Source: an uncultured bacterium (GTDB lineage Bacteria > Planctomycetota > Phycisphaerae > Phycisphaerales > SM1A02). Taken from it: 29,368 bases of DNA. Position numbers and translations under genes: made by a program. Position 1 is the first letter of the stretch, and each line of letters opens with the position of its first letter. The stretch lies in NCBI GenBank assembly GCA_903918555.1, contig CAIXEV010000627.1, positions 1 through 29,368 on the forward strand, in the 5' to 3' direction. This document shows, one piece after another, positions 2 through 29,368 of the stretch. A model generated the notes under the pieces. It had not been told where the DNA came from. It was given only the letters and a program-made list of their open reading frames with translations, and did no database searches.

Positions 2-3000
2 ATCGGTGCGGCGGTCACCCTTGCGCTCAACGATGTTCGGGGCGGGGCGAAGGCGACGATCGACAGGACGACGCTGACCGCCGATGGCAACGTTGTCGTG
101 TCGGCGACCGAAGCAGCGTCTTTGACAGCAGAACTCAGCACCGACCTCGTGGCTACGACGCGCCCCAGCATCAAGCCGGGTACGTCGCTGGCCGTCAACG
201 CGTCCATCGCTACGAACACGGTCCTGAGCGGCGCGAGCGCGGCCATTACCGACAGCGCGGTGACGACGACGAGCGGCGGCTCGGTCGATGTCAGTGCCAG
301 CAACACGGCGGAGATCAGCGCGACCATCGCCGCCAGCACGACCTCCAGCGGCGTCTCGGTCGGCGTGACGCTGGCGTTCAACACCATCGGCTGGCAGTCG
401 CAGAACTTCCTGTTCAATACGCTCGACGCCTTGCTGGGCACGGGAATCGGGACGGCTCAGCCAGACGAAACGGTCGCCTTCATCAAGAACACGACCGTGG
501 CCGCCGATGGCGGCATCAGCGTCACCACAGACTATGCGGCAAGCATCGATGCCAGCATCGAATCGGCCTCCGTGACGCTGAAGGGCAACGTCAACGGCGG
601 CACTGCGGTGAGCGTGGGTGCGGTCATCGCGATGAACAAGATCGCCTCGCGCACGCAGGCGTACGTGGAAGGCGGCGCGACGATCTCCGCGAGTGGCGAC
701 ATCAGCATTTCCGCGACGGACGATTCGACGATCGACGCCCGGTCCGCTGCGGCGTCGACGTCAGTCGCGGCGTCGGTCACGGCTTCGACCTCGGTGTCGA
801 TCGGGGTGAGCGTCGCCCGCAACGAGATCGAGAACGACCTGACTGCGTTCATCCGCAACGCAGGGCAGGTGACCGCGACGGACGGCAGCGTGACGGTGAG
901 CGCCGAGCAGAACGCCGGCATCGACGCGACCTCCACTGCCAGCTCGGTCACCGTGGCCGTGGCCGCAGGTGGGGGCAAGGCCTTTGGCGGTGGTGGCGCG
1001 ACTGCGGTCAACTACATCCGGGGCAAGTCGAACGCGTTCATCGAGGGCGGTAGCGTCTCGGCGACCGGGACGAGTGCTGGCATGGGAGACGTGGCGATCA
1101 CCGCCGACAACACCTCCAGCATCCATGCCGAGGTGGCGGCAGTCTCGGTGTCGGCAGCGCTGGGGTCCGGTAGCTCTCCGGCTGCATCCATCGGATTCTC
1201 GCTGGCACGCAACTTCATCGGCTGGGATTCGAGCGGCGGTTCGTCGGTGGCCACGACCTACACGTCCTCGCAGAATCCCACCACGCTCAGCACCGGCCAG
1301 ACGGTCAGGATCCAGGGCGGAACGCGGGCTGGAGACATCTACGAGTATGTGGGACCGACGTTGACCGACGGCGATCCCAACACGGCTGGCAACCAGCCGA
1401 TCGACCTCGACATCCAGAACTTCCACGACAAGGGCGCGTGGAAGCAGGTCAACCTCAATGCGTCGGCGCTTGAGGTGCAGGCCTACATCAAGAACGCCAG
1501 CGTCACCGCCGCCGACGCACTGACACTGGACGCCGATTCGAATTCGAACATCGACGCCGTCGTACGCGCCGGGTCGGCTGCCTTGTCCGGGGGAGGTGCC
1601 ACCGGGCTCGCAGTCTCGGGCGCGGGCGTGTACGCGGAAAACCGCATCAAGACCTATGTCAAGTCCTATATCGACGGCGACGGGACCACCGGCATCAGCG
1701 CGCGCAGCGTTTCGCTGACCGCCGACGACGCTTCGGGCATCGATGCGATTGCCGGTGCCTCCTCGCTGGCGGGCGCGATCGGCGGCACGACGGGCGCGGC
1801 GGTTTCCATCGGCCTGTCGATCGCGTTCAACGAGGTGAGCAACGAGGTCGAGGCGTATGTGCTGAACGCCGACCAGGGCGTGTCGGCCACGGCCGGTAGC
1901 GTGACGATCGCAGCGACCTCGCAGGGACCGCATCTGTTCGACCTCACCCTTGTTGGCAGCCTGACCACGGCCAACCTGGACGATGCGGCCAAGGCCGACC
2001 AGGACGATCCGGGTACGACCGGCGCCAACGAGGCGAAGACCGATCTGGCTGCAGACATGACTTTCCTGGGTCAGCTGCGCACGGCCATGAACACCGGACT
2101 GACCGGTGTCGGTAGGGCCGCGCTCGCGATTGCAGACACGGTCGCAGCCGAATCCATGTACACCACGGGTTCCGGCTCGCGCGACCTGCGCGAAGGCACC
2201 ACGGTCAAGCTCGCCGCGGGCTACTCGGCTGGCGGGGTGGCGGGACGGGTGTACCGGTACGTGGGCGCCGACGCCAACAACGTCAACCTCGGCACGCAGA
2301 ACTACGCGACCACTGCCAACTGGGTGCTGGTCGACAAGCTCAGGCTCTCGACGCTGGTCGAAGGCGAGAGCTGGTCGCTGCTTGCGCCAGACGGCACCAG
2401 CTATCTGCTGGAGAAGAGCGGCTCGCTCCTCAAGGTTTCGAAGAACACGATCAACGTCGTTTCTTCGGCGGCGTCGTTGTCCGCGGGCTTTGGCGGGACC
2501 ACAGGCGTCGCCATCAGCGGCGCGGGAGCTGTCGCACAGAACGTGGTCCTCACCAGGACCAACGCGTTTGGCCAGAACAGCATCCTCCGCAGCTCCGACG
2601 ACGTCGCGCTGAGCGCAGCGAGCACGACCACGATCTCCTCCGGTGTCGCCGCGGCTTCGCTGGCGCTGGGTGGCGGTGGCACGACCGGTGTCGGGGTTTC
2701 GATCGGCATCGCGGTGGCGCAGAACCTCATCGGATGGACGCCGAACGCGAGCACGTCGACTCCCGCCCAGGTGCAGGCGTATCTCAAGGACACCGCGGTC
2801 CAGGCGGGCGGCGACCTTACCCAGTCTGCAGTGGCGAGGCAGACCGTCAATTCCGTGGTGTTGGCCGGGTCGGCCGCACTCGCGGCCGGCGGCACCACGG
2901 GCGTCGGGGTAAGCGGCTCCGGCGTCTACGCCGAGAACAAGATCGGCGTCGATGTGAAGAGCTACATCGACGGCGACCGCAGCAGCGGAACCGCCGGTGT

Positions 3001-24000: not shown

Positions 24001-27000
24001 TGCGGTCAACGAGGATGCGATCAACCTCGTCGGCAAGCAGGTGACGCTGACCACCGGCACCAACCGCGGCACCACCGCGCGCATCCTCGCCTACGACGCA
24101 CCGAGCAAGACCTACACGCTTGACCGGGATACGACCGTCGGCAGCGGCAACCGCTTCGACATCCAGTACGACATCACCTCGGAGTACCCGGCCTACGCGG
24201 CGAGTTCCGACACCTTCCAGGTCGTGCTGACCCGGGCGCCGACCGCGAATGTCACGCTCGACGTGACGCCGCAGGTTACCGCGACCTACAACTCAGACCT
24301 GGCCTTCTCGGCACGTGACAACTACGGCCAGACCGAGGGCATCCAGGTTGACACGGCCACCCCGCAGGCGAAGATCGAACTGACCGGAACCCCGGTCGCG
24401 GATCAGGTCTGGCGCCTCGCGCTGGGCGGCGTGAACTACGACTACACCGCATCGGCTGCGCCGACGCTGGCGAGCGTGGCCACCGGCCTGAAGGGCGTGA
24501 TCGACGCCGCCAACGCGGGCTATACCGTCACCGTCGCCAGCGGCACGCTCACCGTGAGCCGCTACGCGGGCGATGGCGCCGCGTTCACCGCGCTGCTGTC
24601 GATCCTGCCGTACTCCGAGGGCAGCGTCGCGATCACGCAGCTCGCCGCGACGCCCTGGAAGGCGGCGCTCGCGTTTGCCGGTCCGGTGCGGCAGGGCGAG
24701 GAGTGGAAGGTCAGGCTCAACGACGTCGACTACGCCTATACCGTGCAGTATGGCGACGACCTGGGCGCGGTAACGCTAGGGCTGTTCGAGCAGCTCAAGG
24801 CAGTGACGAGCCTGCGTGTCTCGCTCACCGGCCTGGAACTCACCGTCGCCACTGCCGATCGCACGACGCTGCTCGCCGCCAGCTACACGATCAAGGCCGC
24901 CGGGACGCCCGCGGTGGTGCTGCCTGCGGCGACCGCCGGCGCGACCGTGACCTCCCAGCTCGTCTTCTCGAGCGACGCGTTGCACGGGAACGGTTGGAAC
25001 AAGCAGCAGACGGTCACGGTCACCGCGCGTGACGATCGCATCCTCGAGGGGCACGACCTCAAGGTATTCCCGGCGATGGGCGAGCGGATCAACACCATCC
25101 GCGGTCCGCTGTTCATCGACGGCGGTGCGCAGTACTCGGATGCGAACGCCCTGAACGAGCCGTTCATGACGGCGGGCGAGACCAACCTGGTCCGGCCGAA
25201 CAGCACGATCGCCGCCTTCGGCACCACGACAGCGACGATCAACGGGCAGGCGACCACGGTAGCGACGCTGACCGATACGCGGATCACGCACGTCGATGCG
25301 GCGCGCGGCGAGATGCCGGGTCTCGATCCGCGCATGAACGATTACGCGTACCAGATCACGGTGATCAATTCGCCGGGCGTGGGCACGCCGATGGATCTGC
25401 TGCTGGGTGGTCTGAAGGGCGACACGCTGGCGGTGAAGGCCGAGGATGGCACCAGCACGCTGCAGGTGGTGTCGTTCAACGGCCCGGCGGGTGCCTCGGT
25501 CTCGGTGAAGGGCCGCGGCGACGCCGGCACGCTGTACTCGAAGGCGGATATCGTCCTCAAGGGCGACGTGTTCAAGGACAGCGTCTGGGAACTCAATGTC
25601 GGCGGCACTGCGTTCTCGTACACCGCGGGCAGCCGGCCGGGGGGCGCGACGGCGGACGACGCGCTCACGCTCGATATCGTCGCGCTGCGCCTGGGCAACG
25701 AGATCGCGGCGGCGGGGTTCACGGTCGTGCGCACCGGCTTCCTGCTCGAGATCAGCCGCGCAGCGTCCTTTGCCGCGAGCTTCACGCCGGGCAAGGGCAA
25801 CGCGACGATCCTCGGGACCCCGGCCAGCGACACCGGCGTCAGCTGGGCGGTGGCCGAGGTGAAGTTCGCGATGACCCAGCCGATCACGGCCGGCCAGGTC
25901 TGGAGCGTCACCCTGCTCAAGTCGGGCGGTGCCGAAACGAACCAGACCTACACCTACACGGCGCGTACCGGCGACGACCTGACGGCGGTCATCCTGGGCC
26001 TTGCCGACCAGATCGACATCAGCTCGCGTTACCACTCGGACATCAAGTACGAAACCGCCACGTTCACCACGAACTGGCCGGCGAGTCCCGCGGTGGCCAA
26101 CGGGCTGGGCTACTACATCACCCCGCTCAACCGCAACTTCCTGGCGGTCGAGGCGGACCAGGTCGACGTGCTCAATCTTTTCAACCGCGCGAGCGTCTCG
26201 GACGACGCGGGCGTGCTGACCGACTCGCGCCTCACCGGCTTTGGGATGGGCGGCGACACGGTGGTCGCCGGCAAGGCGGTTAAGGGTGGCATCAGCTACC
26301 AGGGGCTCGAGCAGCTGAACCTGATGCTGGGGTCCGGCAACGACCGGCTGACCGTCGAGTCGACGCATCTGGGCTCGACCACGATCACCAGCGCCGGCGG
26401 CAACGACACCATCACGATCAAGACGGTTGCCGGCCACACCTTCGTGGATACGGGCGCAGGCAGCGACGTGGTGAACGTCGGCAGCGACCTGAACGTGGTC
26501 GACCAGATTACCGGCTTGCTGGTGATCAGCCAGGGCGGCGACGGTGCCGGCGATGTGCTCAACGTGGTCGATTCCGGCGATGAGAACGCCAATACGGCGA
26601 CCCTGACCCAGAGCACGCTGACCGGTCTGGACATGCCCACGGTCGCGGAGGTCCAGACCATCCGGGTGCAGGCGAAGGAGGGCACGTTCCGCCTCGGCCT
26701 CGCGCCTGAACTGTATGTACCTGGCGCGCCGTACGGCGAGGCACAGACCATCACCTACGACAAGTCCGGTAGCGGCGCCGGCGTGTCTGACATCCAGACG
26801 AAGCTGCGCGTCCTGTATGGCACTTCCGACCTGATCGTGACCGAGGTCGGCCGCGAAATCGCGGCGGGAGAGACCGACGCGCGAGCGATCACCTACGCCC
26901 TTACCTTCACCGGTGCGAAGGCCGGCGTCGACATGCCGAAGGTCGTGTGGGCGGAGGCGCGCGCCGCGATCGACGTGTCGGCGCAGAAGCCACTCACCAA

Positions 27001-29368
27001 CCTCCTTGCCTACGACAGTGCGTCGGTCGACGTGAATGTCGTCACCAAGCGCGAGGGCTCGGTCACGCCGACGGTTGGCAACGTGCAGACCTTCGCGGTC
27101 GACGCCACCGGTGGCACATTCCGGCTGACGGTCAACGTGCCGCAGCCCGGCAGCACCACGGTGCTTGCCCAGACCACCGCGGCCATCGCCTGGAATGCCA
27201 CGGCCGAGCAGATCCGCACGGCGCTCGATCCGATCCTGAACCCGAACGGGTCGATCCTCGATCCGTTCAATCCGCGCAACGACAATTCCAGGCCGTACAC
27301 CAACAACGTGGCGGTGACCCGCGCGGGCAACGTGGTGACCCTCGCCTTCCAGGGCGAGCACCGCGGCAAGGCGGTGACGGCGGTCGACACCACGGCGCTG
27401 ACCGGCGGCGCGGCGACCATCGACGTGGCGACGCGCACGAGCGGCATCAACTACTACGGCGTCGGCACGCTGAACATCACGTTGGGTTCGGGCGACGACC
27501 TCTTCAATGTCCAGGGCACCAGCGCGGTCACCAACCTGAACACGAAGGGCGGCGCGGACCGGATCTACGTCTCGTCGACCGCGGACGTGAACGCGTTCAC
27601 CGGGTCGAGCGGTTTCATGGCCGGCAACGTGGTGAGTTTCAGCGGCGATGATCGTCCGGTACTCCAGTTCGAACTCGCCGAGTCAGCCACTTCGGTCAGC
27701 ATCGAAATCCGCAACGCTGCGGGTACGGTGGTGCGTACCGTGGCGCTGGGCGCCTCGGCCGCCGGCAACCATCTGCCGGCCTGGGACGGCAAGGACACTG
27801 CCGGCAACGTGGTGGCCGCGGGCGCCTACAGCTACAGCGTCACCGCGACCCGCGCCGACGCCTCGACGTTCGCCGGCACGACGGCGATGCGCGGCACGCT
27901 CGACCGCGTGACCGGTACGCTCAACATCGACGCCGGCAGCGGCATCAACGCGCTGATGGTGAGCGATGCAGGCTCCCGCACCGCCGACACGGCGGTGCTC
28001 GTTACCAGGGACCGCATCAGTGGCCTCGCACCGGCGGTCGTCAATTACGTCACCACCGGCACGGATACCGACGGCAACGGCGGCACCTACGCCGGCGGCA
28101 TCACGATCTGGAGTGGCTACGCCGCGGATACGGTCACGGTCACCAGCACGCGCCGGGACAGCGGGCCCCTCGTGGGCGACCTTGCCGTGCGCACCGTGAC
28201 GTCGCTCAATACCGGCCTCGGGGACGACCGCGTCACGGTATCGCTGTCCGCCGCTACCGACGGGTTCTTCGCGGTCAATACCCAGGGTCCGTTCGACCAC
28301 GATTACCTCGGCACCGCGCGCACCGACGACGACACGGTCGTGGGGTCGGGCTCGTCGCTGCCGCTGATCGTGTTCGGCGGCCAGGGCAAGGACGACATCA
28401 CCGGCGGCAGCGGCGACGACATCCTGTTCGGGGATCGCGGCCGGGTCGAGTACAAGAACGCGTCTGGCACTGCGGTCCAGGTGCTGGGTTGGGGCGGCCT
28501 GGGCGACATGACCGACGGCCTCGCCCGCATCGTCAGCGTGGCGCGCACGGCCGACATCGCGGTCGGCGGCAACGACTTCCTGCTGGCCGGTGAGGGCAAC
28601 AACATCGTCTTCGGCGGTGCCAACGGCGGCGGGGCGCTCGCCAACGCGGCGGCGGCGGGATTCATTGGCGATTACCTGCAGACCGGCGCGGGATCGGACA
28701 TCCTGTTTGGCGACAACGGCACCGTCGAGTTCGTGCTGCCCGGCCTGCCAGGCGCCGGCAAAGCGCTGCGCTACCAGACCACGGACACCCTCGCCGCCAC
28801 GGGTGGCAACGACAAGCTGCTCGCCGGCGCCGGCACGAACACCATCCTTGGCGGGATGGGGGCTGACACCATCGTCTCCACCGACGCCACCGGTACTCAC
28901 GTCGATACGATCCTCGGTGATAACGGTCTCGTCGAGATGGATGCGCAGGGCGGCAACTACGCACTGGTGCGCACCTTGTCGCGGGCCTCGGCGGGCGGCT
29001 CGCTCGTCGACCTTGGCGGTAATGACCAGATCACGGTCAGCGGCAACCGCGCGGCTGTGGTCGTTCTGGGCGGAGACGGCACCGACACGATCGACATCCT
29101 GGGCGCGGGCAACCGGACGATCCTGGGCGACAACGGGATCGTGACCTACGTGGCGCTGGGCCAGGTTGGCGCAGGCCGAGCGTTGAAGTACGAGACGACG
29201 GACACGCTGCTGTCGACGAGCGCGGGCGGCACGGCGGGTGCGGACACGATCACGGTGACCGGAGACGGCGACAACACCGTGCTGGGCGGCCTGGGTGGCG
29301 ACACGATCGCGCTGAAGAACGGCCGCGACACGGTGCTGGGCGACAACGGCATCGTGCAGATGGATGCC
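2..29368 (+). CDS. Giant secreted repetitive RTX-type adhesin/surface protein, internal fragment of at least 9,789 aa (5'- and 3'-partial)
   Basis: Hand translation of frame +2 begins IGAAVTLALNDVRGGAKATIDR..., ends ...VLGDNGIVQMDA, and showed no stop. The ORF track lists + strand ORFs only in the other two frames, although frame +2 has ATGs from nt 632 onward, which fits no in-frame stop. GC-rich third positions, coherent protein repeats throughout, many GGxGxD motifs. Confidence 0.96.
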   Translation, partial: MGAAVTLALNDVRGGAKATIDRTTLTADGNVVVSATEAASLTAELSTDLVATTRPSIKPGTSLAVNASIATNTVLSGASAAITDSAVTTTSGGSVDVSASNTAEISATIAASTTSSGVSVGVTLAFNTIGWQSQNFLFNTLDALLGTGIGTAQPDETVAFIKNTTVAADGGISVTTDYAASIDASIESASVTLKGNVNGGTAVSVGAVIAMNKIASRTQAYVEGGATISASGDISISATDDSTIDARSAAASTSVAASVTASTSVSIGVSVARNEIENDLTAFIRNAGQVTATDGSVTVSAEQNAGIDATSTASSVTVAVAAGGGKAFGGGGATAVNYIRGKSNAFIEGGSVSATGTSAGMGDVAITADNTSSIHAEVAAVSVSAALGSGSSPAASIGFSLARNFIGWDSSGGSSVATTYTSSQNPTTLSTGQTVRIQGGTRAGDIYEYVGPTLTDGDPNTAGNQPIDLDIQNFHDKGAWKQVNLNASALEVQAYIKNASVTAADALTLDADSNSNIDAVVRAGSAALSGGGATGLAVSGAGVYAENRIKTYVKSYIDGDGTTGISARSVSLTADDASGIDAIAGASSLAGAIGGTTGAAVSIGLSIAFNEVSNEVEAYVLNADQGVSATAGSVTIAATSQGPHLFDLTLVGSLTTANLDDAAKADQDDPGTTGANEAKTDLAADMTFLGQLRTAMNTGLTGVGRAALAIADTVAAESMYTTGSGSRDLREGTTVKLAAGYSAGGVAGRVYRYVGADANNVNLGTQNYATTANWVLVDKLRLSTLVEGESWSLLAPDGTSYLLEKSGSLLKVSKNTINVVSSAASLSAGFGGTTGVAISGAGAVAQNVVLTRTNAFGQNSILRSSDDVALSAASTTTISSGVAAASLALGGGGTTGVGVSIGIAVAQNLIGWTPNASTSTPAQVQAYLKDTAVQAGGDLTQSAVARQTVNSVVLAGSAALAAGGTTGVGVSGSGVYAENKIGVDVKSYIDGDRSSGTAGVSADSVTLSASDKSIINAQAGASSLAASLGGTAGVAVSVGISLARNTITSAVEAYIKNADGTAASATDNGVTATAGGISLSASEAATINATSSAASLAAGIGGTAGIAVSGAGADAANVILTRTNAYAQGSTLSSTGNVALGATNTATIDAKVVSAAFSAALGGTAGVGASIGVALARNFIGKQLNGTSAPAEVQAYLADTSVSAGGSLALTATSNQTISTKVLAGSVALAGGGTFGGALAGAGASATNDIAVKVKAYIDGDGASGISATGITLTARDTSSISATVGAASIAASVGGTAGISAAVGVALARNTIANQVEAVIRNADTGVTATAGAIVLDADQVATITASSGAAALGAAVGGVAGIAISGAGAEATNVILNKVNAHVDASRLTASGAVTLTADDASTILAQVIAASASISVGGTAGIGASIGVALARNLIGRQLDGTSAPAEVQAYLVDSSVSAGGVLALTATSNQNISTTVLAGSVALAGGGTFGGALAGAGASATNDIAVKVKAYIDGDGASGISASGITLTARDTSSISATVGAASIAASVGGVAGISAAVGVALARNTIANQVEAAIKNADTGVTATAGAIVLDADQVATITASSGAAALGAAVGGVVGGIAISGAGAEATNVILNQVNAHVDASRLTTSGAVTLTADDASTILAQVIAASASIAVGATAGIGASIGASRSRNLIGWKLDGTRQEAQVQAYVLDSSIAAGGDLQMKATARETINANVLTGSVAVAGGTVGVAASGAGSETENRIATLVKAFIDGDGATGISARDITLTADDLSTIGASAGSASVAAGFGAAGVAVSVGLGLARNEISNVVDAYIRNADGAPGNANDGVVTHSEGSIRIEAINAATITTTALAASAAVGGGLVGVGFSGAGADARNSILTKTRAYVEDSDLVADDGDTTRTERVTISARDTSTITAQVLGLSAAVGGGLVGGAVSIGSSTARNFIGWTLAGTESPAEVLAFAKNARIAAADALSISATESATISAKVDAASVALAGGAVAIAASGAGADVQNKVSTKVQAYVDGSRGAGVVAGTGGLTISAQDTSTITAQAFAASVSGSVGLVGGSAAIGVALTSNSIGNDVRAFVRSATVSTTGNMTVQAIESASITAVSQAAAVSASAGLSVSLSGGGASASANVTTATRAFVESSTVTVTGDLVINAQVVATAVARVDATAASFGLISAAAAGSVVSATVNPTVEARLSGSTVSARDVTVSASAQPKADVQASGFAVSSGVSVGVSRADVTLAPVVTATAGGTMTANSLSVSARHLLPASGKSANAYAAASTGGLLIGVSATIARASNSAQVVAAIANSSNLNITGNVSVAASNSTRQDAEATAVAGGVLAAGVADSRTTSNTSNTATLGTNVTLTASSLSIGATGHDANYATTTAGSGGVAAGASAKAATSGTSNTLASIGASSNVNLSLRGTGELSLSAEHTAALNTLQITSAGGVIAGAGVSVDNEVISAVDATIGASATVLAREIDLSATNNVDKPTFADIPNPNPLLGLFIPTVSVPNVKGSTGGLASGAGISSDFRITLNTNVTVGASANVQTVGVITDDTLIRMRAFNSIVAQDKVSFLSGGAVAGASADAKIRTLADVARVTIGDGVTLLSKGALELSARGTGNVVQKISVDVFGAGTLVKGESRIDINPLNEVTIGSAAITAYGDLKISAGRDTDFNSDRYRLEARYDGLAGSLVPIDSVDGKAFLIQENRINIGTGAHLRTAGQAKLHAERDSINDLTAKAKITSWTSAIGDGLLALTGGGADQYNGHLLQEAHGTVTNNGTVETGITRRVMLSLNSWNAQAGTVTGTPSDGVTFTTSQEIQNSTLGTDLANAKDLLAKYGSIDAKLQAYYSSEVTRIQQEMLAKKLGFFQSDGVTFTPVTSYVMTVTVDPIRAQAGRIDVRGDQLVGESNGRWIAPTDASVTITNNTPAFLNLKGITIPDEVGRLFFNGGLVGTNAAIKAENQRNVDDDNSRSSAYADTTAQTPVIPTFGLLPTDATSGFAEPTITVTNALDVDDVTDGNTYVQPNITVLGPSRGGVGISNLSGNVIINFGGGAFVAQGAVTAKNLIVTGTGNVYIDGVAQFALGEPSSVWGGVTYGTTGGVTASGVINANVNPANVANLLAQGPTATGSMIARQIFIRANIINVNGLIQSGKDAYELNLDANAANEVRTKLNQGFGGTFKLDQTSAATGGDFNVWFNTATQSFEVRDVTVAGGSVTLEGKIVNTGNGKIRVLSGYGQIKVLNTTAYGVEVRKLDAAQRGQGTLVIIDKAKPSGGNPHTATTYQRNGVVGNETYAPSADMRYGWAVSWGTRTVEKIHRESSNWLGLVNLGSFDETGKTVENIAAPALEGGAGYYYSETNSSLQNATYNYSQATFQTNSTDPEAQWREVRHEVRSSWYGKKTYITDYQKRVDNKTVARHDISAHRNIAIEFFGGAEASVVVSSTSSRDVVIGSILNTSGTTTVSSGGAIRMAGADGAIGGRRVVLTALAGIGTDQRAVTTNVTDSSTSSLYAVTTNGNVNIVERSDDLAIDQVKATAGGNVSIVVPENLLVAATYEGLVQGSRINIDTSGGATSQGGGVGNSTTAPLVVESGNQLKDTVTVNANGNVFLKEKTGNLHLKQIDAGGGTVWVNVAAGGLIDANNSQTVDERIRSELEGGLWSELGLTENTGANQKVLDAIAGFKTTKETEYRTYWKYRGQQANPAVYDETFNVNLSADDEAYYRDVLGYDSPAITTLKNKLTQEYGDLHTRYGSYGNSFNAAFSYTLTSAEDTALRGSIRIWTAEELLFSMSGGVLKATADTVSVLEDPNIKGTDVTIITSQGIGNTTGKVVIDIATVQASGLTSEERIAFSAADRPDITYIVGNIVGSSASPVRFNFTQGASDTITRLDGGNFITDGFSVGRKVYVEGISLNATAKGVFYEVASVTASTITLTTGVRLVATEASMVAVLSPVIADPTGQFASVLKIGIDQRDDVNLKASGNVNVTAGTNIYLGTLDGFKVQAVTAADAVRIKAKDDIVNAASSGANITSSDLILESGQGGIGTSAKSFSVLLSSSGGLQGTLTARALKDVYISSAVTLKIAGVQSQNAGVYLTAGGSIVDGLSSDAPKLAGSVISLSAAVDIGASANWLETDLTATGTLTATAGGSIWLREVANNMNVDRITSTGGDVNLRAHQSIVDASTATGEPASKPGIDVKAKANINLASDFGAIGISGNDLDIDSDTSATDGVTGTLTISSFLGANLIEVAGDLAVDTITAGAGYTAFIAAPDGRILNGRASGSNVVSGKAFLFAKNDIGTSAKAFLTQVGNLEGQSTLGSAYITNTGAMTVGGVTASAVGMNVKGAVTLTTLSPIAVVSSIRSEGDITLTATDAAGDGDTLDVGYDGSGNPVSGVEIESTGGRVLLVSGDRFRLGASALLRAGTVEIRTDDSATSGLDGGGSIAIYGTIDAAETILAGGADNDVFMITVSATRAGSTTFVRGGLGADLIHVGSNATPTTNTGGTVNGIAQRLAIDGEGGSDVVIVDETGETVATSLVSDRETLGGAPYGRLTGLAAGNILYRSAEIIDVNLGAGDDTAQIKATESGTTMTLRTGTGNDTVTAGSTTADATSTVNDLSGALVVDAQGGAADVLRINDSGDAAANTGTLTATTLTGLGTAGITYTNVETLNLDLGGGGDAFTIASTHANRTNLRSQGGVDGILVQTVAGRTTIDTGLAADLITVGDATHDLAGIVGQLDIAGGGQTGDTLNVDARVATSALTGRTYTVGLVAGTAGVSGLGMTIGLNYTGIDAFNLTLGKGGDNLFVEGTNTATHVIDAYLGDDVINIGSISGVTRVYGDRITDASGATEKGFGGKDRIRVNYGQDGRQTFANGVAALLTVGGGEDDDLIEIGLSGKLSNPTTTPPQSRIKVESASAYPTDPGSDRLNVYGTNDSDLFLFRPGAIIALQTDANGDRVAGGGVERIDYATVSGGITVFGRDGDDTFAMDSTSSALTVYGDAGADRFQVGQIFKSPRDADAGLVGEDRFATTLTTRGYLSDGVNFDAFLYGGAGNDTFTIYRNKANVFLYGEEDDDTFTVRAFVAVDPNDPLKPITNINGGKGKDLITYTVNAPVNIDGGDGSDTLIVVGTEFADKIVVTDAGVYGAGLFVTYTSLENIVVDGLEGNDQFFIASTPAGATVSTIGGKGSDTFNVAGNVTAEPIDVVSNDLLGHSGIIDLAIPSANTTDAGYQNRFIGDISASVMDNESAGIALTMLGGVLRVFEGNSSSTLTRSRYSVVLTRAPQEDVRVTASPATIRQADALAGGKGIALNGSEAGTTLRFDRTNWFIPQIIEVTAPADTLAEGRRAINIQHTVVQGADLGDGGEYDSLALPSPVVEVFDDDAAGVVITPASNGQVIVNQDSSVSVGSDANAYYVSLARQPTGDVEINLAVQPDDNGVAQVYTDAQVYPAGVYAGIPHLSFNTTNWATPQTVKVTAKPDPTGVLQGTQFVRIQHSVAAESVNNFYGLSLDDVARGLAAKVAGDLTGQYTATATGTTVTITGKAAFTATSPDSRVTVVGAESAYSVAHITPAGAVAAGDRYTLSVNGRQSVYVAGANGDELTLAAVAQGIKAAYDASALAGVTASIASAGTVTFTGQTSVIPAFTARLVQSNASTATVTGTTVDGRFGKVTVTVAEEVKKDELWTLKLGDSTYRYVAGKNGEMTALPSIDVTLTDKDSAGVLVTQSGGDTRVIEPTDLVLLGAAEVTGTATPGQGLSIASADAVRLEVLIAEAPTATSVSSGRATVSGTQVWTQADITLSGTVVAGNTWSVRIEGRNYAYVAKDTDTTLAHIATGLMTVLTAPTTAPTPGLGGSYAVSLPEGSSGVVAVSKATGFTVQVLSGNGALTGTSAWRNPVIALSGTPGNSETWTVRVNGTNYSYATPATGAVTLSMVADGIKTALTSGGTPAFASAAVTKVALTQFIANFGASEINEAAGRKDSIFTAQSLEVDVWNRQPNANILNADTRPHVTVRGTGDGTTDVYKFVVTNEMLATGSVTATFDIDKGLDYFDSIFWASQLNLYNSSGALIARGLGYSNPSDPSKGAGGSTTWLDDFLTYTFTTAGTYFVEITNWIPLGTNSNGIPKGADYELQVSIDRHKTAEFVLEAAPVLKQGDTVQNVDAAGNWYTFLDPTIGNGTDIGSSTPYVKISALGDDTVDRYSFVVSAANLSQAGGTSGTTVGETPARTYYTSADVQLTGRVKAGDVWTVRLSGLDYTYTVSAADVTAETGASGAGLANIASGLAAKITARTTTNTDGVADITQGATYSAAVSADPKTLRITDPNGFWFALDHQIDDAAVVLREGAVQGNSTLPLTRADVVFSGTVTVGDVWTVTLNGTPYVYTTTTASLDDVAAGLDTAIGTVAGVSVAASGSTLGFTATGSNSFTLAVKESGQTADGVAKFTNVATRAAYQQADVALSGTVTAGNTWTLSLRDQADIATDYTFTATTTSLADVAAGLVSTLNTTKPGTATYAATQYGQVVRITDAGTGKFFTASIASSGTGSGTVNGIAVQTAAQDVKWTNAALALTGTFRAGDTYAVTVNAGTASAYTATYVAGAAGTAGTTGTTTTYAATLEGVALALRDAINNMAPAGKTYAATASGTTLTIADPAGVTLTYGVTGAASAGTLASANAWTKSLAFANPVAGDAGRTYTVAVDNVYFNATADATPTAAEILAALSTAINANASYAATYDTDATRGSGVLTIAKKDRSAIVARLEQGSVSTPSAAVADAAKVVTIGTPTADQVHTLILKETSSGTVRAFTYHADASPTAAEVATGLAAAVNAGSATHKFAVSRSADVADTLLITNTDGLAFTADTTRGSTSVVSGTSAYTYRLSGTVTAGEVYSVTLVPASGSASVFAFEAATTAIDDVLAGLAAAVNTAGSGYTATARTASDTLTIVNNAGATFSVSTTRGTAAADAGAASARLSGAVSIGDVFTVALKRGASTEYYSYAATTTSIDDVLTGLKTTIGTTNYAVTADATSGTLTVVRNSAGALTMSVDRGTAKDISSWAASISVGGTGIADGDTVTVRVAYGSGPTTKDYAVTVSGITVDMTDVQRQQTVAGLIATAINTDSPALFYADVESGSAVVNVFSAAKVDATTAIVSVTKQAGAASITLAPVTNATQSVQVTGTAAAGKVWTIGLPNPTAGTDYYSFAATTANLADVVTGLVAAINASTVTSGFSAVDSSHNGATVPSLTITRSSAIAFTASVANPAASLADSSGWTETLKLSGTVATNTAWVLSAKSGTTYATFGYAATSSDTTLASVASGLAGAVTGANYRALDTGNDTVTLFRIDRATTTVSTTAPVATLVDAAAWTETLRLAGTPTEGMVYAVGTKDAVPTPAYETYSVVAGSTPDLATLTTALATALDASATYDAIATGNNTITILRGADTNAFSALTTLGANPSDAAAWSKAVQVSGTVATGKIYTVALTTASGAPTYFNYTASATDTLDSVTTALSGLIDASSGYATLVTGASGSKVIHVLQQGGITGITSSTSLAAPATDAAAYAETVEVGDTVGGTVVARETWNITLTPSSGSPVTFSYVAGSGADIADAQTVAQRLAAQIHANVSYNATAFQTAAGTWVVAISAQGGTGGFTATQSVSAAAPLVRPTLGGEAKVAWTQQVTLADGAGLDDVWTVRLDGTSGLSNYQLTGSTDTSATAAAALAGSTGYVDLGTTGNVAKFRQVNSNFVTIGQRTWIDRLAPTATTAPAADSVAASARLTEYNFTLAGKVSVGDVWAIKLNGIEYKYTAAAGNNLNAVSIGLRAAINAGGLFTAAGSGADIKVTIKPGAWFTGFTQNLSQGGGKVRAVLDIDRTRVMQGVQTFLQTNYVPVYYFGFFGGYQVVTTAVNVSYIDTPVVTLRDASGNVVLPVSTNAGATTPDAGSTLLTDPLQTYELSAAGTYTVEVMASRQYLQANPFASNGLVGIASGQPYALNVSLQRHAVNEDAINLVGKQVTLTTGTNRGTTARILAYDAPSKTYTLDRDTTVGSGNRFDIQYDITSEYPAYAASSDTFQVVLTRAPTANVTLDVTPQVTATYNSDLAFSARDNYGQTEGIQVDTATPQAKIELTGTPVADQVWRLALGGVNYDYTASAAPTLASVATGLKGVIDAANAGYTVTVASGTLTVSRYAGDGAAFTALLSILPYSEGSVAITQLAATPWKAALAFAGPVRQGEEWKVRLNDVDYAYTVQYGDDLGAVTLGLFEQLKAVTSLRVSLTGLELTVATADRTTLLAASYTIKAAGTPAVVLPAATAGATVTSQLVFSSDALHGNGWNKQQTVTVTARDDRILEGHDLKVFPAMGERINTIRGPLFIDGGAQYSDANALNEPFMTAGETNLVRPNSTIAAFGTTTATINGQATTVATLTDTRITHVDAARGEMPGLDPRMNDYAYQITVINSPGVGTPMDLLLGGLKGDTLAVKAEDGTSTLQVVSFNGPAGASVSVKGRGDAGTLYSKADIVLKGDVFKDSVWELNVGGTAFSYTAGSRPGGATADDALTLDIVALRLGNEIAAAGFTVVRTGFLLEISRAASFAASFTPGKGNATILGTPASDTGVSWAVAEVKFAMTQPITAGQVWSVTLLKSGGAETNQTYTYTARTGDDLTAVILGLADQIDISSRYHSDIKYETATFTTNWPASPAVANGLGYYITPLNRNFLAVEADQVDVLNLFNRASVSDDAGVLTDSRLTGFGMGGDTVVAGKAVKGGISYQGLEQLNLMLGSGNDRLTVESTHLGSTTITSAGGNDTITIKTVAGHTFVDTGAGSDVVNVGSDLNVVDQITGLLVISQGGDGAGDVLNVVDSGDENANTATLTQSTLTGLDMPTVAEVQTIRVQAKEGTFRLGLAPELYVPGAPYGEAQTITYDKSGSGAGVSDIQTKLRVLYGTSDLIVTEVGREIAAGETDARAITYALTFTGAKAGVDMPKVVWAEARAAIDVSAQKPLTNLLAYDSASVDVNVVTKREGSVTPTVGNVQTFAVDATGGTFRLTVNVPQPGSTTVLAQTTAAIAWNATAEQIRTALDPILNPNGSILDPFNPRNDNSRPYTNNVAVTRAGNVVTLAFQGEHRGKAVTAVDTTALTGGAATIDVATRTSGINYYGVGTLNITLGSGDDLFNVQGTSAVTNLNTKGGADRIYVSSTADVNAFTGSSGFMAGNVVSFSGDDRPVLQFELAESATSVSIEIRNAAGTVVRTVALGASAAGNHLPAWDGKDTAGNVVAAGAYSYSVTATRADASTFAGTTAMRGTLDRVTGTLNIDAGSGINALMVSDAGSRTADTAVLVTRDRISGLAPAVVNYVTTGTDTDGNGGTYAGGITIWSGYAADTVTVTSTRRDSGPLVGDLAVRTVTSLNTGLGDDRVTVSLSAATDGFFAVNTQGPFDHDYLGTARTDDDTVVGSGSSLPLIVFGGQGKDDITGGSGDDILFGDRGRVEYKNASGTAVQVLGWGGLGDMTDGLARIVSVARTADIAVGGNDFLLAGEGNNIVFGGANGGGALANAAAAGFIGDYLQTGAGSDILFGDNGTVEFVLPGLPGAGKALRYQTTDTLAATGGNDKLLAGAGTNTILGGMGADTIVSTDATGTHVDTILGDNGLVEMDAQGGNYALVRTLSRASAGGSLVDLGGNDQITVSGNRAAVVVLGGDGTDTIDILGAGNRTILGDNGIVTYVALGQVGAGRALKYETTDTLLSTSAGGTAGADTITVTGDGDNTVLGGLGGDTIALKNGRDTVLGDNGIVQMDA
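1259..1450 (+). other. Small aromatic insert module 1 (Y...G.TV.I..G..AG.IYEYVG...IDL..QNF.D...W)
   Basis: Translation YTSSQNPTTLSTGQTVRIQGGTRAGDIYEYVGPT...IDLDIQNFHDKGAWKQV interrupts a beta-helix unit and is paralogous to 2159-2332. Confidence 0.7.
2159..2332 (+). other. Small aromatic insert module 2
   Basis: YTTGSGSRDLREGTTVKLAAGYSAGGVAGRVYRYVGADANNVNLGTQNYATTANWVLV has the same Y/G/YVG/L/W pattern as module 1. Confidence 0.7.
3557..5075 (+). repeat. Near-identical in-frame tandem duplication with a 774/777-nt period
   Basis: Long shared DNA stretches, e.g. gccggctcggtggccctggccggcggcggcaccttcggcggcgcactcgccggcgcaggtgccagcgcgaccaacgacatcgc, occur near 3671 and 4445. Copy 2 has one extra codon (GVAG vs GVVGG). 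Boundaries are approximate. Confidence 0.92.
8500..8706 (+). repeat. Perfect 21-nt direct repeat gagcgacggcgtcaccttcac (8500-8520 and 8686-8706)
   Basis: Read directly from the sequence. Both copies encode SDGVTFT, lie 186 nt apart and flank a helical-looking segment. Confidence 0.9.
10380..13400 (+). repeat. Haemagglutinin-like beta-helix repeats, second type
   Basis: Recurring IG...(L/F).(V/T)D....L.A.(A/G)(G/N).I.(L/I).E..G.(L/M).(V/I)..I.(A/S).GG.V.L.A..SIVD, e.g. DIGASANWLETDLTATGTLTATAGGSIWLREVANNMNVDRITSTGGDVNLRAHQSIVD. Confidence 0.7.
13425..15634 (+). repeat. RTX-like glycine/aspartate (Ca2+-binding type) beta-roll region 1
   Basis: GGADND, GGLGAD, GEGGSD, GAGDD, GTGND, GGAGNDTFTI, GEEDDDTF, GGKGKD, GGDGSDTL, GLEGND, GGKGSDTFNV. 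The GGxGxDxxx nonapeptide is the hallmark of type I secretion substrates. Confidence 0.85.
15779..16195 (+). other. Calx-beta/cadherin-like Ig-fold domain 1 (intact)
   Basis: DNESAGI...YSVVLTRAPQEDVRV...LRFDRTNWFIPQIIEVTAPADTLAEG...IQHTV...YDSLALPSPVVEVFDDD. The L.F...NW..PQ.V.V.A.DD...EG pattern is typical of Calx-beta-related domains. Assigned by eye. Confidence 0.65.
16190..17197 (+). other. Calx-beta-like domain 2, split by a 196-aa insert (16571-17158)
   Basis: YYVSLARQPTGDVEI...LSFNTTNWATPQTVKVTA...IQHSV...FYGL, then the insert, then ALPSIDVTLTDKD. This aligns with YDSL-ALPSPVVEVFDDD of domain 1. Confidence 0.65.
17954..18457 (+). other. PPC-like (pre-peptidase C-terminal type) beta-sandwich domain 1 (intact)
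   Basis: EINE...DSIFTAQSL...PHVTVRGTGDGTTDVYKF...ATFDID...SQLNLYNSSGALIA...GSTTWLDDFLTYTFTTAGTYFVEI...DYELQVSIDRH. The D.Y.F / DID / L.L...G / D.....F..AGTY.V / Y.L.V pattern fits PPC-type domains. Confidence 0.65.
18503..24001 (+). other. PPC-like domain 2, split into 18503-18685 and 23570-24001
   Basis: N-half: QNVDAAGNWY...PYVKISALGDDTVDRYSFVVS. C-half: RAVLDID...DTPVVTLRDASGNVV...GSTLLTDPLQTYELSAAGTYTVEV...YALNVSLQRH. Together they are collinear with domain 1. Confidence 0.7.
26636..27442 (+). other. Two 'EVQ'-type domains inserted in a beta-roll unit
   Basis: AEVQTIRVQAKEGTFRLGL...DIQTKLRVLYG...YALTFTG and GNVQTFAVDATGGTFRLTV...TTAAIAWNATAEQIRTAL...VTLAFQG. They sit between LTGLDM and GINYYG, which are adjacent in other units. 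Confidence 0.65.
27623..27895 (+). other. FlgD (flagellar hook-cap) Ig-like domain embedded in the giant protein
   Basis: GNVVSFSGDDRPVLQFELAESATSVSIEIRNAAGTVVRTVALGASAAGNHLPAWDGKDTAGNVVAAGAYSYSVTA matches the FlgD_ig signature F.L...A..V.I.I....G.VVRT..LG...AG.....WDG.D..G.....G.Y...V.A. Confidence 0.8.
28420..29368 (+). repeat. '(I/V)(L/F)GD(N/R)G' RTX-associated repeats, ~70-aa period, running off the window end
   Basis: The GD(N/R)G Gly codon lies at 28430, 28709, 28916, 29126 and 29339. Two subtypes alternate: GAG(K/R)AL(R/K)Y(Q/E)TTDTL and GDNG(L/I)V(E/Q)MDA. Confidence 0.85.

What the first reader, a model, noticed from the sequence alone, without database searches (positions are those of the whole stretch)
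2..29368. A single stop-free reading frame of at least 9,789 codons fills the window and is absent from the ORF track
Seen: frame +2 is open end to end and gives coherent repeat protein throughout. No frame +2 ORF is listed despite in-frame ATGs from nt 632. Established: GGxGxD nonapeptides mark type I secretion (RTX) substrates. Inference: since both ends lie outside the window, the full protein exceeds ~1 MDa and is among the very large bacterial proteins. Such genes are easily mis-annotated as antisense hypothetical ORFs.
Basis: partly seen in the sequence, partly recalled or inferred. Interest (0 to 1): 0.8.

Follow-up and report, generated by a model that had tools for sequence, protein, structure and literature searches.

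The report
Fragment of a 15,000-residue secreted fibre protein
The window is a real, uninterrupted 9,789-codon piece from the middle of a roughly 15,000-residue calcium-binding surface-fibre gene. The gene probably belongs to a betaproteobacterium rather than the planctomycete genome it was binned with, and its relatives sit beside an untested secretion gene set, not a classical type I system.

Summary
Frame +2 is open over all 9,789 codons (chance about 1e-94) and GC3 is 0.89. The ORF track missed it only because ORFs open at both ends are not listed by default. The window is a whole 29.4-kb contig.

Collinear orthologs at 60-89% identity on long contigs of Burkholderiales and Sulfuritalea MAGs are 15,301 and 14,390 aa. 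The window matches their residues about 2,851-12,813. The full protein is therefore about 1.5 MDa.

Anatomy of the fragment:
- no cysteine, pI 4.55;
- 2,650 aa of LktA_tand_53 repeats;
- a conserved ~2,000-aa beta-rich core with no solved structural match;
- 23 copies of a rare ~100-aa module;
- an FlgD-type Ig domain;
- the first units of a C-terminal RTX array.

The classical-T1SS/LapG reading is only partly supported. Orthologs lie between SapC-TolC and GAF-HlyD, PqqD/M50-HlyD, a short SecA-like ATPase and a small adaptor, with no ABC transporter or LapG nearby. They start with a LEPR-XLL leader.

This scan had already met that cassette on other DNA, and a 2015 paper noted it. The rest of the MAG is Phycisphaerales, so the contig is probably mis-binned. 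Verdict: a new member of a known kind, of moderate interest.

The parts
2..29368 (+). Internal fragment (9,789 codons, 981 kDa, no Cys, pI 4.55) of a giant secreted fibre gene. It matches residues ~2,851-12,813 of the 15,301-aa ortholog on G041:C10.
2..7951 (+). aa 1-2650: array of LktA_tand_53 repeats (NCBIfam NF012206, 21 stretches, E 1e-132). It continues upstream of the contig in the orthologs.
3485..5399 (+). The only DNA-level repeat: a tandem 774-nt (258-aa) unit, with copies 1 and 2 at 85-89% identity. The window has one more unit than the three orthologs G041, G044 and G045, so this is a lineage-specific duplication. At 85% identity it is not an assembler-made copy.
7952..13201 (+). 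aa 2651-4400: non-repetitive conserved core. It is 75-89% identical in orthologs and 30-40% identical in 11-13 distant giant proteins from other phyla. No Pfam or NCBIfam family matches. The AF2 model of aa 2950-3750 (nt 8849-11251) is beta-rich, with very long hairpins, a beta-helical stretch and a helical insertion.
13502..15616 (+). aa 4501-5205: first cluster of five dispersed GGxGxD motifs. No Pfam match.
16574..25915 (+). aa 5525-8638: 22 copies of a ~100-aa module (three strands, a helix, four strands; consensus ...LSGTVxxGxxWTVxL...YxY...LxDVAxGLxxAI...YxA...LxI...). A 23rd hit lies upstream at aa 4775-4855. Two non-module inserts interrupt the array (about aa 5950-6150 and 7820-8030). 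No Pfam or NCBIfam family matches.
27623..27859 (+). aa 9208-9286: FlgD-type Ig-like domain (PF13860, E 4.8e-20).
28319..29368 (+). aa ~9440-9789: the first units of the C-terminal RTX-type array (HemolysinCabind; GGxGxD every ~70 aa). It is cut by the contig end. In the G041 ortholog the array runs about 2,100 aa further and is followed by a ~320-aa tail.
6674..16750 (-). The largest of several antisense 'shadow' ORFs (3,358 aa; others at 761-5560, 20255-22870 and 24776-27361). Their codon position 1 lies opposite the sense position 3 (GC1 0.87-0.90, GC3 about 0.6), so they are not genes.

Best explanation
SHOWN: the window is the middle two thirds of one real gene for a modular, cysteine-free, acidic, beta-rich extracellular fibre protein of about 15,000 residues. 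From N to C, complete orthologs carry: a LEPR-XLL leader; DUF4347; about 5,000 aa of LktA_tand_53 repeats; a conserved ~2,000-aa beta-rich core; dispersed Ca-binding motifs; about 22 copies of a rare ~100-aa alpha/beta module; an FlgD-type Ig domain; a ~2,400-aa RTX-type array; and a conserved C-terminal tail. In the two orthologous loci with full flanks the gene sits in one fixed neighbourhood: methyltransferase, unknown, radical SAM, SapC, TolC, GIANT, GAF-HlyD, PqqD/M50-HlyD, short SecA-like ATPase, small adaptor.

INFERRED: the protein is made unfolded in the cytoplasm. Its N-terminal LEPR-XLL leader is recognised, and probably cut, by the PqqD-like/M50 protease-adaptor fusion. The SecA-like ATPase, whose Walker A (GEGKT) and DEVD motifs are intact in the ortholog, drives it out through a HlyD-adaptor/TolC duct. 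Outside the cell, Ca2+ binding to the RTX and GGxGxD units folds it into a long surface fibre used for adhesion, matrix building or cell-cell contact.

The host is most likely a Sulfuritalea/Rhodocyclaceae-like betaproteobacterium. In that case the contig was mis-binned into a Phycisphaerales MAG.
For: Real gene:
- No stop in 9,789 codons, GC3 0.89, chance about 1e-94.
- Collinear orthologs at 45-89% identity in five independent MAG assemblies.

Size:
- Uninterrupted ORFs of 15,301 aa (G041:C10, a 669-kb contig) and 14,390 aa (G043:C11). The window maps to residues 2,851-12,813 of the former.

Anatomy.

Secreted-fibre character:
- 0 Cys in 9,789 residues, pI 4.55.
- HemolysinCabind matches.
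- LEPR-XLL (NF012209, 23.4 bits against a cut-off of 17) in the ortholog, and the same motif at the start of 10 of about 12 distant homologs with a full N-terminus.

Export neighbourhood:
- Identical 12-gene synteny in G041 and G043.
- In 10 of the 11 loci with visible upstream sequence among the 12 fetched with the M50-HlyD protein, a Cys-poor ORF that runs off the 5' edge (9 of them with RTX-like motifs) ends just upstream of GAF-HlyD.
- No ABC_membrane gene on the 669-kb contig; LapG-like genes lie elsewhere.
- SecA-like keeps GEGKT and DEVD; M50 keeps HEFGH and about 6 membrane segments.
- The module was described computationally by Kamneva et al. 2015 (PMC4452313, read).

Host:
- The MAG's housekeeping SecA is 96% identical to Planctomycetota/Phycisphaerales MAGs.
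- The giant's 75-83% orthologs are all on Rhodocyclales, Sulfuritalea or Burkholderiales records.
- None was found in 24 same-genus genomes.
- No cassette gene and no remainder of the gene was found anywhere in the MAG.
Against: - Nothing in the window itself shows the leader, the tail or the export genes. All of that rests on orthologs at 60-89% identity.
- No component of the cassette has been tested experimentally (Kamneva 2015 is purely computational).
- The C-terminal RTX array is the classical hallmark of ABC-driven, C-terminus-first type I secretion. The ortholog's genome holds an orphan HlyB-like ABC plus a HlyD pair on another contig.
- In 121 genomes of the ortholog's family, the giant's core was found in 7 and the cassette in about 41. 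Only 4 of the 7 have both, which is not significant.
- Mis-binning is not proven. Codon usage is inconclusive. Giant genes are known to be strain-specific and to deviate in tetranucleotide usage (Reva & Tummler 2008, as cited in PMC11573180). The contig's outlier status (97th of 98) and its absence from congeners are therefore not diagnostic. No read coverage could be examined.
Confidence: 0.6

Rival explanations
1. One reading: a classical RTX adhesin. It would be exported C-terminus first by an ABC transporter / HlyD / TolC type I system, possibly with LapG/LapD-type surface retention.
For: RTX-type repeats lie in the window's last 350 aa and in the ortholog's C-terminal 2,499 aa. The protein has no Cys and is acidic. 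A TolC of the type I class (TIGR01844, 307 bits against a cut-off of 225) and SapC, a gene first seen in the Campylobacter fetus sap type I locus (own knowledge; also stated in bioRxiv 10.64898/2026.03.19.712371), lie directly upstream in orthologs. An orphan HlyB-like ABC (TIGR01846, 574 bits, below its cut-off of 725) and a HlyD (TIGR01843, 316 bits, above its cut-off) with no linked substrate sit on G041:C8.
Against: No ABC exporter lies on the 669-kb contig that carries the ortholog. In G043 the nearest ABC is an MsbA-related 598-aa protein that is not conserved in the G041 locus. LapG-like genes are unlinked. The N-terminus is LEPR-XLL plus DUF4347 rather than a retention module. The GGxGxD motifs are about 70 aa apart, not tandem nonapeptides. 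The fixed downstream partners are the SecA-like cassette.
Confidence: 0.25
2. The contig truly belongs to the Phycisphaerales genome, and the gene was acquired recently by horizontal transfer from a betaproteobacterium.
For: Giant genes are typically strain-specific and compositionally deviant. The SecA_DEAD module occurs in Planctomycetes and was inferred to spread by HGT (PMC4452313). A same-order genome (G037) has a distant 4,850-aa homolog. The contig's GC (0.68) matches the MAG's (0.69).
Against: The core is 81-83% identical at the protein level to copies binned in three different betaproteobacterial MAGs. It was not found in 24 same-genus genomes. No cassette gene, TolC/SapC partner or remainder of the gene is in the MAG. 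The MAG is 82% complete with 4.6% contamination. Leu codon preference (CTG over CTC) matches the betaproteobacterial flanks and not the rest of the MAG.
Confidence: 0.2
3. The open frame is an artefact: a chance open frame in GC-rich DNA, a collapsed or chimeric repeat assembly, or a pseudogene.
For: High GC produces long spurious ORFs; there is an antisense ORF of 3,358 aa here. The contig ends in repeats, and reads could not be examined. One ortholog (G042) carries a frameshift.
Against: Chance is about 1e-94 and GC3 is 0.89, against about 0.6 in the antisense ORFs. The frame is collinear over its whole length with independently assembled orthologs, including uninterrupted 14-15k-aa ORFs on 117-kb and 669-kb contigs. 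The longest exact DNA repeat is under 99 nt, and the only repeat pair is 85% identical.
Confidence: 0.03

Closest known systems
LEPR-XLL giant proteins (NCBIfam NF012209 'LEPR-8K' with NF012206 'LktA_tand_53'), e.g. the 7,971-aa 'type I secretion target repeat protein' of Oceanospirillum sp. MED92 (P0003)
   Same: The same LktA_tand_53 array, the same conserved ~2,000-aa core (33-40% identity to P0003), few or no cysteines, RTX repeats, and in orthologs the same N-terminal LExLEPRxLLSAD leader.
   Different: About twice as long (14.4-15.3k aa). It carries 22-23 copies of a ~100-aa module that a sequence search found in only 16 representative proteins out of 1.84 billion. The leader itself is not in the window.
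'Secondary SecA_DEAD' / type-I-related conserved locus (Kamneva, Poudel & Ward 2015, PLoS One, PMC4452313)
   Same: Orthologs are followed by exactly that set: a GAF-HlyD protein, a Peptidase_M50-HlyD protein, a SecA_DEAD protein lacking the wing/scaffold domain, and a further HlyD-type adaptor.
   Different: In the passages read here, the paper did not name a cargo. Here, and in earlier notes of this scan on other DNA, a giant LEPR-XLL gene sits immediately upstream, with SapC and TolC before it. The window's own MAG has none of these genes.
Classical giant RTX adhesins exported by type I secretion (LapA/LapBCE with LapG-LapD; own knowledge of the family)
   Same: A huge, repetitive, Cys-free, acidic, Ca-binding protein with a C-terminal RTX region, and dependence on a TolC-family channel is likely.
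   Different: No linked ABC transporter, no linked LapG, and a different N-terminus. RTX motifs are dispersed at about 70-aa spacing.
Giant epibiont proteins Cag_663/Cag_665 of Chlorobium chlorochromatii (bioRxiv 10.64898/2026.03.19.712371)
   Same: Giant beta-helical proteins flanked by sapC and tolC homologs and lacking known transport signals. That paper reports limited VgrG/FhaB-like similarity. Here part of the core model matches a DUF2345 (VgrG-associated) entry in AlphaFold DB at E 4.5e-10.
   Different: Sequence homology to those proteins was not tested here, and the organism and ecology differ. That paper proposes a sap-type type I route, not the SecA-like cassette.
Omnitrophota giant proteins (West-Roberts et al. 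2023, bioRxiv 10.1101/2023.11.21.568195)
   Same: Giant genes that fragment short-read assemblies. They are associated with a SecA DEAD/preprotein-binding domain that lacks the wing/scaffold part, which that paper proposes acts in the giant's own export.
   Different: There the SecA-like domain is fused into the giant protein, which also has many transmembrane segments, and the neighbours are type II/IV-like. Here SecA-like is a separate 664-aa gene and the giant has at most one weak hydrophobic segment in 9,789 residues.

Membership tests
RTX / classical type I secretion substrate | Glycine- and aspartate-rich GGxGxDxUx calcium-binding repeats near the C-terminus | tested here: met
   PF00353 E 6.6e-12 (45.6 bits, cut-off 23) in aa 9290-9789, and E 4.9e-36 with 9 stretches in the ortholog's last 2,499 aa. 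Caveat: the motifs are about 70 aa apart rather than tandem.
RTX / classical type I secretion substrate | A dedicated ABC transporter with an MFP and TolC encoded next to the substrate | tested here: not met
   TolC is adjacent (TIGR01844, 307 bits). No ABC_membrane gene lies on the 669-kb ortholog contig. The ABC near the G043 locus is MsbA-related and not conserved. An orphan HlyB-like/HlyD pair sits on another contig. Linkage is usual but not obligatory for this family.
RTX / classical type I secretion substrate | An uncleaved secretion signal in the last ~60 residues | not testable with these tools
   The C-terminus lies outside the window. Orthologs share a conserved tail (W-L-D ... I-D-W-G) of unknown role.
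LapA-type adhesin with LapG/LapD control | A LapG (Peptidase_C93) gene linked to the adhesin | tested here: not met
   PF06035 matches in G041, G042 and G043 all lie on contigs other than the giant's. None was found in G000.
LapA-type adhesin with LapG/LapD control | An N-terminal retention module and a linked LapD gene | not tested
   The ortholog's first 2,633 residues match only LEPR-XLL, DUF4347 and LktA_tand_53 in Pfam and NCBIfam. No retention-module model and no LapD model were searched.
LEPR-XLL giant proteins (NF012209 / NF012206) | A tandem LktA_tand_53 repeat array | tested here: met
   NF012206 E 1e-132, 432 bits (cut-off 50), 21 stretches in aa 1-2650.
LEPR-XLL giant proteins (NF012209 / NF012206) | An N-terminal LEPR-XLL motif | not testable with these tools
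   The N-terminus is not in the window or anywhere in the MAG. It is met in the 15,301-aa ortholog (23.4 bits, cut-off 17) and in 10 of about 12 distant homologs with a full N-terminus.
Cargo of the secondary-SecA_DEAD / M50-HlyD / GAF-HlyD module | The giant gene lies directly beside the module | tested here: inconclusive
   Met in orthologs G041 and G043, and in 10 of the 11 loci with visible upstream sequence fetched with M50-HlyD. Not observable for the window: no module gene was found in the 82%-complete MAG. Genome-level co-occurrence was 4 of 7 against about 37 of 114, which is not significant.
Two-partner-secretion / autotransporter haemagglutinins (FhaB-like) | An N-terminal TPS (Haemagg_act) domain or a C-terminal autotransporter barrel | tested here: not met
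   Pfam scans of the ortholog's first 2,633 and last 2,499 residues, and of the whole window protein, found neither. AlphaFold-DB matches to FHA or autotransporter entries were weak, at E about 1e-2.

The most novel reading that the evidence does not exclude
The ~15,000-aa protein is at the long end of the cargoes reported so far in this scan's notes for an undescribed, ABC-less secretion route. In that route an N-terminal LEPR-XLL leader is read and cut by a PqqD-like/M50 protease fused to a HlyD adaptor, and a truncated SecA motor threads the unfolded, cysteine-free chain through a TolC duct. Its 6,000-plus residues without any family match (a conserved core and a rare 100-aa module repeated 23 times) would then be new extracellular folds.
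Probability: 0.45. Interest if true: 0.8.

Novelty: new member of a known kind. Interest (0 to 1): 0.45.

Why it matters
The case shows how a 1.5-MDa gene looks in short-read metagenomes. It appears as a contig that is nothing but open frame. It is invisible to ORF lists that drop open-ended frames, it is shadowed by kilobase-long antisense ORFs, and here it probably ended up in the bin of the wrong phylum.

Biologically, it adds a very large member (14.4-15.3k aa in orthologs) to the LEPR-XLL giant proteins. Their fixed neighbours form a TolC-linked, SecA-like, ABC-less gene set whose function has never been tested. If that set is their exporter, it would be a new way of moving megadalton proteins across two membranes.

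Two thirds of the protein has no family assignment, so it is also a source of uncharacterised extracellular domains.

Tried and rejected
1. Extending the contig. The window is the whole contig C627. BLAST of its ends, of its protein, and of the ortholog's missing N- and C-terminal parts and neighbour genes found nothing else in the MAG.

3. Complex prediction of the PqqD-like domain of M50-HlyD with the LEPR-XLL leader, each supplied as an alignment of 11 rows. The result was no verdict (score 0.31, mark 0.32). This counts neither for nor against binding.

4. My impression from reading that aa ~5950-6150 and ~7820-8030 are pre-peptidase-C-terminal-like domains and that aa ~5230-5530 is Calx-beta-like. 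Pfam found nothing even at E <= 1, so the idea was dropped.

5. ESM Atlas feature search with aa 2900-4400. The best score was 0.77 to an unnamed cluster, which is uninformative.

6. Foldseek against PDB.
- The module model had no match at E <= 1e-3. The best weak rows were phage tail-sheath and flagellin/FliD outer domains (about 104 residues, rmsd 3.7-4 A). This is a lead only.
- The core model had no match better than E 0.04.

7. Codon usage (RSCU) as a binning test. Distances to the rest of the MAG (1.05) and to betaproteobacterial flanks (0.99) are alike. Only the Leu codons lean towards the betaproteobacterial pattern.

8. Genome-level co-occurrence of core and cassette in 121 genomes. 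It was not significant.

9. The first attempt at a repeat alignment used overlapping segments and came out staggered, so it was discarded.
Full report
OBSERVATION

Frame +2 of the window (nt 2-29368) translates to 9,789 residues without a stop. With open ends allowed, the ORF list shows it as open at both ends. Its first alternative start is at nt 98 (GTG) and its first ATG is at nt 632. The other frames hold 9-518 stops. From base composition, the chance of such a frame is about 1e-94. GC by codon position is 0.60/0.54/0.89.

The long antisense ORFs (up to 3,358 aa) all lie in the frame whose first codon position faces the sense third position (GC1 0.87-0.90, GC3 about 0.6). They are shadows of the real gene.

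THE WINDOW IS A WHOLE CONTIG

C627 is 29,368 bp, identical to the window, and is the longest of 731 contigs in a 3.3-Mb MAG (82% complete, 4.6% contaminated). Three searches of the other contigs found nothing:
- the contig ends;
- the protein in 600-aa pieces;
- the missing N- and C-terminal parts and all neighbour genes taken from an ortholog.

At the DNA level the window has a single repeat, a 774-nt tandem unit whose first two copies are 85-89% identical. No exact repeat reaches 99 nt. The window has exactly one more of these 258-aa units than three orthologs. At 85% identity this is a true duplication and not an assembler-made copy.

ORTHOLOGS AND TRUE SIZE

The non-repetitive core (aa 2700-4400) finds seven loci in the species-representative genomes. 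Their identity is 75-83% on Rhodocyclales, Sulfuritalea and Burkholderiales MAG contigs and 49-60% on four more.

Two of them are long contigs with the complete gene:
- G041:C10 (669 kb) carries an uninterrupted 15,301-codon frame, 15,258 aa from the first start and 1.53 MDa.
- G043:C11 (117 kb) carries one of 14,390 codons.

The window protein is collinear with both over its full length and matches residues 2,851-12,813 of the first. About 2,850 residues are therefore missing upstream and about 2,490 downstream.

Two other short-read contigs (26.5 and 28.5 kb) are also nothing but this frame. All three break inside the N-terminal repeat array. At the other end they break in the RTX or module arrays. 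This explains why the gene is never completed in such assemblies. One ortholog (G042) carries a frameshift.

ANATOMY

- The fragment has no cysteine, a pI of 4.55 and a mass of 981 kDa.
- Residues 1-2650 are LktA_tand_53 repeats (NF012206, E 1e-132, 21 stretches).
- Residues about 2650-4400 form a non-repetitive core. It is conserved at 75-89% in orthologs and at 30-40% in 11-13 giant proteins of 5,800-8,000 aa from Oceanospirillum, Pirellula, Thermodesulfobacteriota and others.
- An AlphaFold2 model of aa 2950-3750 (15-row alignment, pLDDT 78, pTM 0.69) is beta-rich, with 20-residue hairpins, a beta-helical stretch and a helical insertion. It has no PDB match (best E 0.04). In AlphaFold DB its C-terminal part matches a DUF2345 (VgrG-associated) entry at E 4.5e-10, and its N-terminal part matches an uncharacterised protein at 2.3e-7.
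- Residues 4501-5205 hold five dispersed GGxGxD motifs.
- Residues 5525-8638 hold 22 copies of a ~100-aa module, found by an iterated HMM; a 23rd hit lies at aa 4775-4855. A full phmmer pass over 1.84 billion representative proteins found only 16 proteins with E <= 1e-3.
- The module model is confident for one full unit (pLDDT 85-98) and shows three strands, a helix and four strands. Its best PDB rows are weak matches to outer domains of phage tail sheaths and of flagellin/FliD.
- Residues 9208-9286 are an FlgD-type Ig domain (E 4.8e-20).
- The last ~350 residues begin an RTX-type array (PF00353, E 6.6e-12). In the ortholog this array continues for about 2,100 residues with a GGxGxD every ~70 aa (E 4.9e-36).
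- About two thirds of the window protein has no Pfam or NCBIfam assignment.

THE MISSING ENDS, FROM ORTHOLOGS

The N-terminus carries the LEPR-XLL motif (NF012209, above its cut-off) followed by DUF4347 (E 2e-48). The same LExLEPRxLLSAD motif opens 10 of about 12 distant homologs that have a full N-terminus. E, R, L and S are invariant in an 11-row alignment. The C-terminal ~60 residues share a W-L-D ... I-D-W-G tail in ten related loci, but not in the distant homologs.

NEIGHBOURHOOD AND EXPORT

G041 and G043 share the same order of genes:
- O-methyltransferase;
- an unknown 290-aa protein;
- radical SAM;
- SapC;
- TolC (TIGR01844, above its cut-off);
- the giant gene;
- a GAF-HlyD adaptor;
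- a 715-aa PqqD-like + M50 (HEFGH, about 6 membrane segments) + HlyD fusion, whose best NCBIfam match is the daptide intramembrane metalloprotease (E 1e-47);
- a 664-aa SecA-like ATPase with DEAD, preprotein-binding and P-loop domains, intact GEGKT and DEVD, and a length about 200 residues short of the SecA models it matches (NCBIfam SecA profiles of ~790-810 positions);
- a short adaptor;
- two small genes.

Twelve loci were fetched with the M50-HlyD protein. In 10 of the 11 with visible upstream sequence, a Cys-poor frame that runs off the 5' edge, with RTX-like motifs in 9 of them, ends just before GAF-HlyD.

No ABC exporter gene lies on the 669-kb contig, and the LapG-like genes are on other contigs. 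The ABC 2.4 kb beyond the G043 cassette is MsbA-related and is missing from the G041 locus.

This gene set is the 'secondary SecA_DEAD' locus described computationally by Kamneva, Poudel and Ward in 2015. In the passages I read, they proposed a secretion-related role and named no cargo (PMC4452313). Earlier notes of this scan, on other DNA, describe the same cassette beside LEPR-XLL giants. I used them as leads and re-derived the adjacency here.

The classical route cannot be excluded. An orphan HlyB-like ABC/HlyD pair without a linked substrate sits on G041:C8. Co-occurrence of core and cassette in 121 genomes of that family was not significant. A complex prediction for leader and PqqD-like domain gave no verdict.

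HOST

The MAG's housekeeping SecA (C726) is 96% identical to a Planctomycetota MAG and 82-92% identical to Phycisphaerales MAGs. By contrast:
- the giant's close orthologs are all on betaproteobacterial records;
- 24 same-genus genomes lack it;
- the MAG has no cassette gene;
- the Leu codon choice of C627 resembles the betaproteobacterial flanks.

The contig is a tetranucleotide outlier (97th of 98). That is expected of giant genes anyway. I put mis-binning at about 0.75-0.8 and recent transfer at about 0.2.

VERDICT

The gene is real and is among the largest bacterial genes, though far from the record: the literature read here reports predicted bacterial proteins of over 30,000 aa. It belongs to an already catalogued kind, the LEPR-XLL / LktA_tand_53 giants, which are often annotated as type I secretion targets.

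The added value is threefold: the full-length estimate, the domain map with two uncharacterised parts, and the link by orthology to the untested SecA-like, ABC-less TolC cassette. The contig is probably mis-binned as well.

Noticed in passing
G000 contig C726 (L023:12133-14772) versus the window: The MAG's housekeeping SecA is 96% identical to Planctomycetota/Phycisphaerales MAGs, while the giant ORF's close orthologs are all betaproteobacterial. The MAG's longest contig is probably a mis-binned foreign contig.
   Followed up: partly
L072-L083 and G043:C11, last ~60 codons of the giant genes: A conserved C-terminal tail, G-A-[IV]-E-x2-A-x2-W-L-D ... I-D-W-G, is present in 10 related loci and absent from distant homologs. 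It could be an export, anchoring or SapC-binding signal.
   Followed up: partly
G041:C10 226537-229473 and 286661-290974 (L013, L016); also L073 and L074: Methyltransferase and radical-SAM genes are conserved on both sides of the locus: O-methyltransferase, an unknown protein and radical SAM upstream; an unknown protein, a DVU1556-like methyltransferase and a B12-binding radical SAM downstream. This hints at post-translational modification linked to the PqqD-like/M50 protein.
   Followed up: no
G041:C8 261959-265465 (L084:7959-11465): An orphan HlyB-like ABC (703 aa) and a type I HlyD adaptor sit with no substrate gene beside them; the neighbours are ribonucleotide reductase, a response regulator and hut genes.
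   Followed up: partly
window 3485-5399: There is a lineage-specific extra copy of a 258-aa unit within the LktA_tand_53 array, relative to G041, G044 and G045. So repeat copy number varies between close relatives.
   Followed up: yes
G042:C58 about 106,670-106,830 (L070): The Sulfuritalea MAG2 ortholog changes frame here (3,942-aa and 8,259-aa frames overlap). This is either an assembly error or a pseudogene.
   Followed up: no
G117:C29 and G083:C55: Two further genomes of the ortholog's family carry homologs with open frames of 14,979 and 10,417 aa on the same contig as an M50-HlyD gene. In G117 the cassette lies on the other side of the giant gene.
   Followed up: no
window 16574-25915 (model m644c8322a2ce): The ~100-aa module's best, though weak, structural neighbours are the outward-facing decoration domains of phage tail sheaths and of flagellin/FliD D2-D3.
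   Followed up: partly
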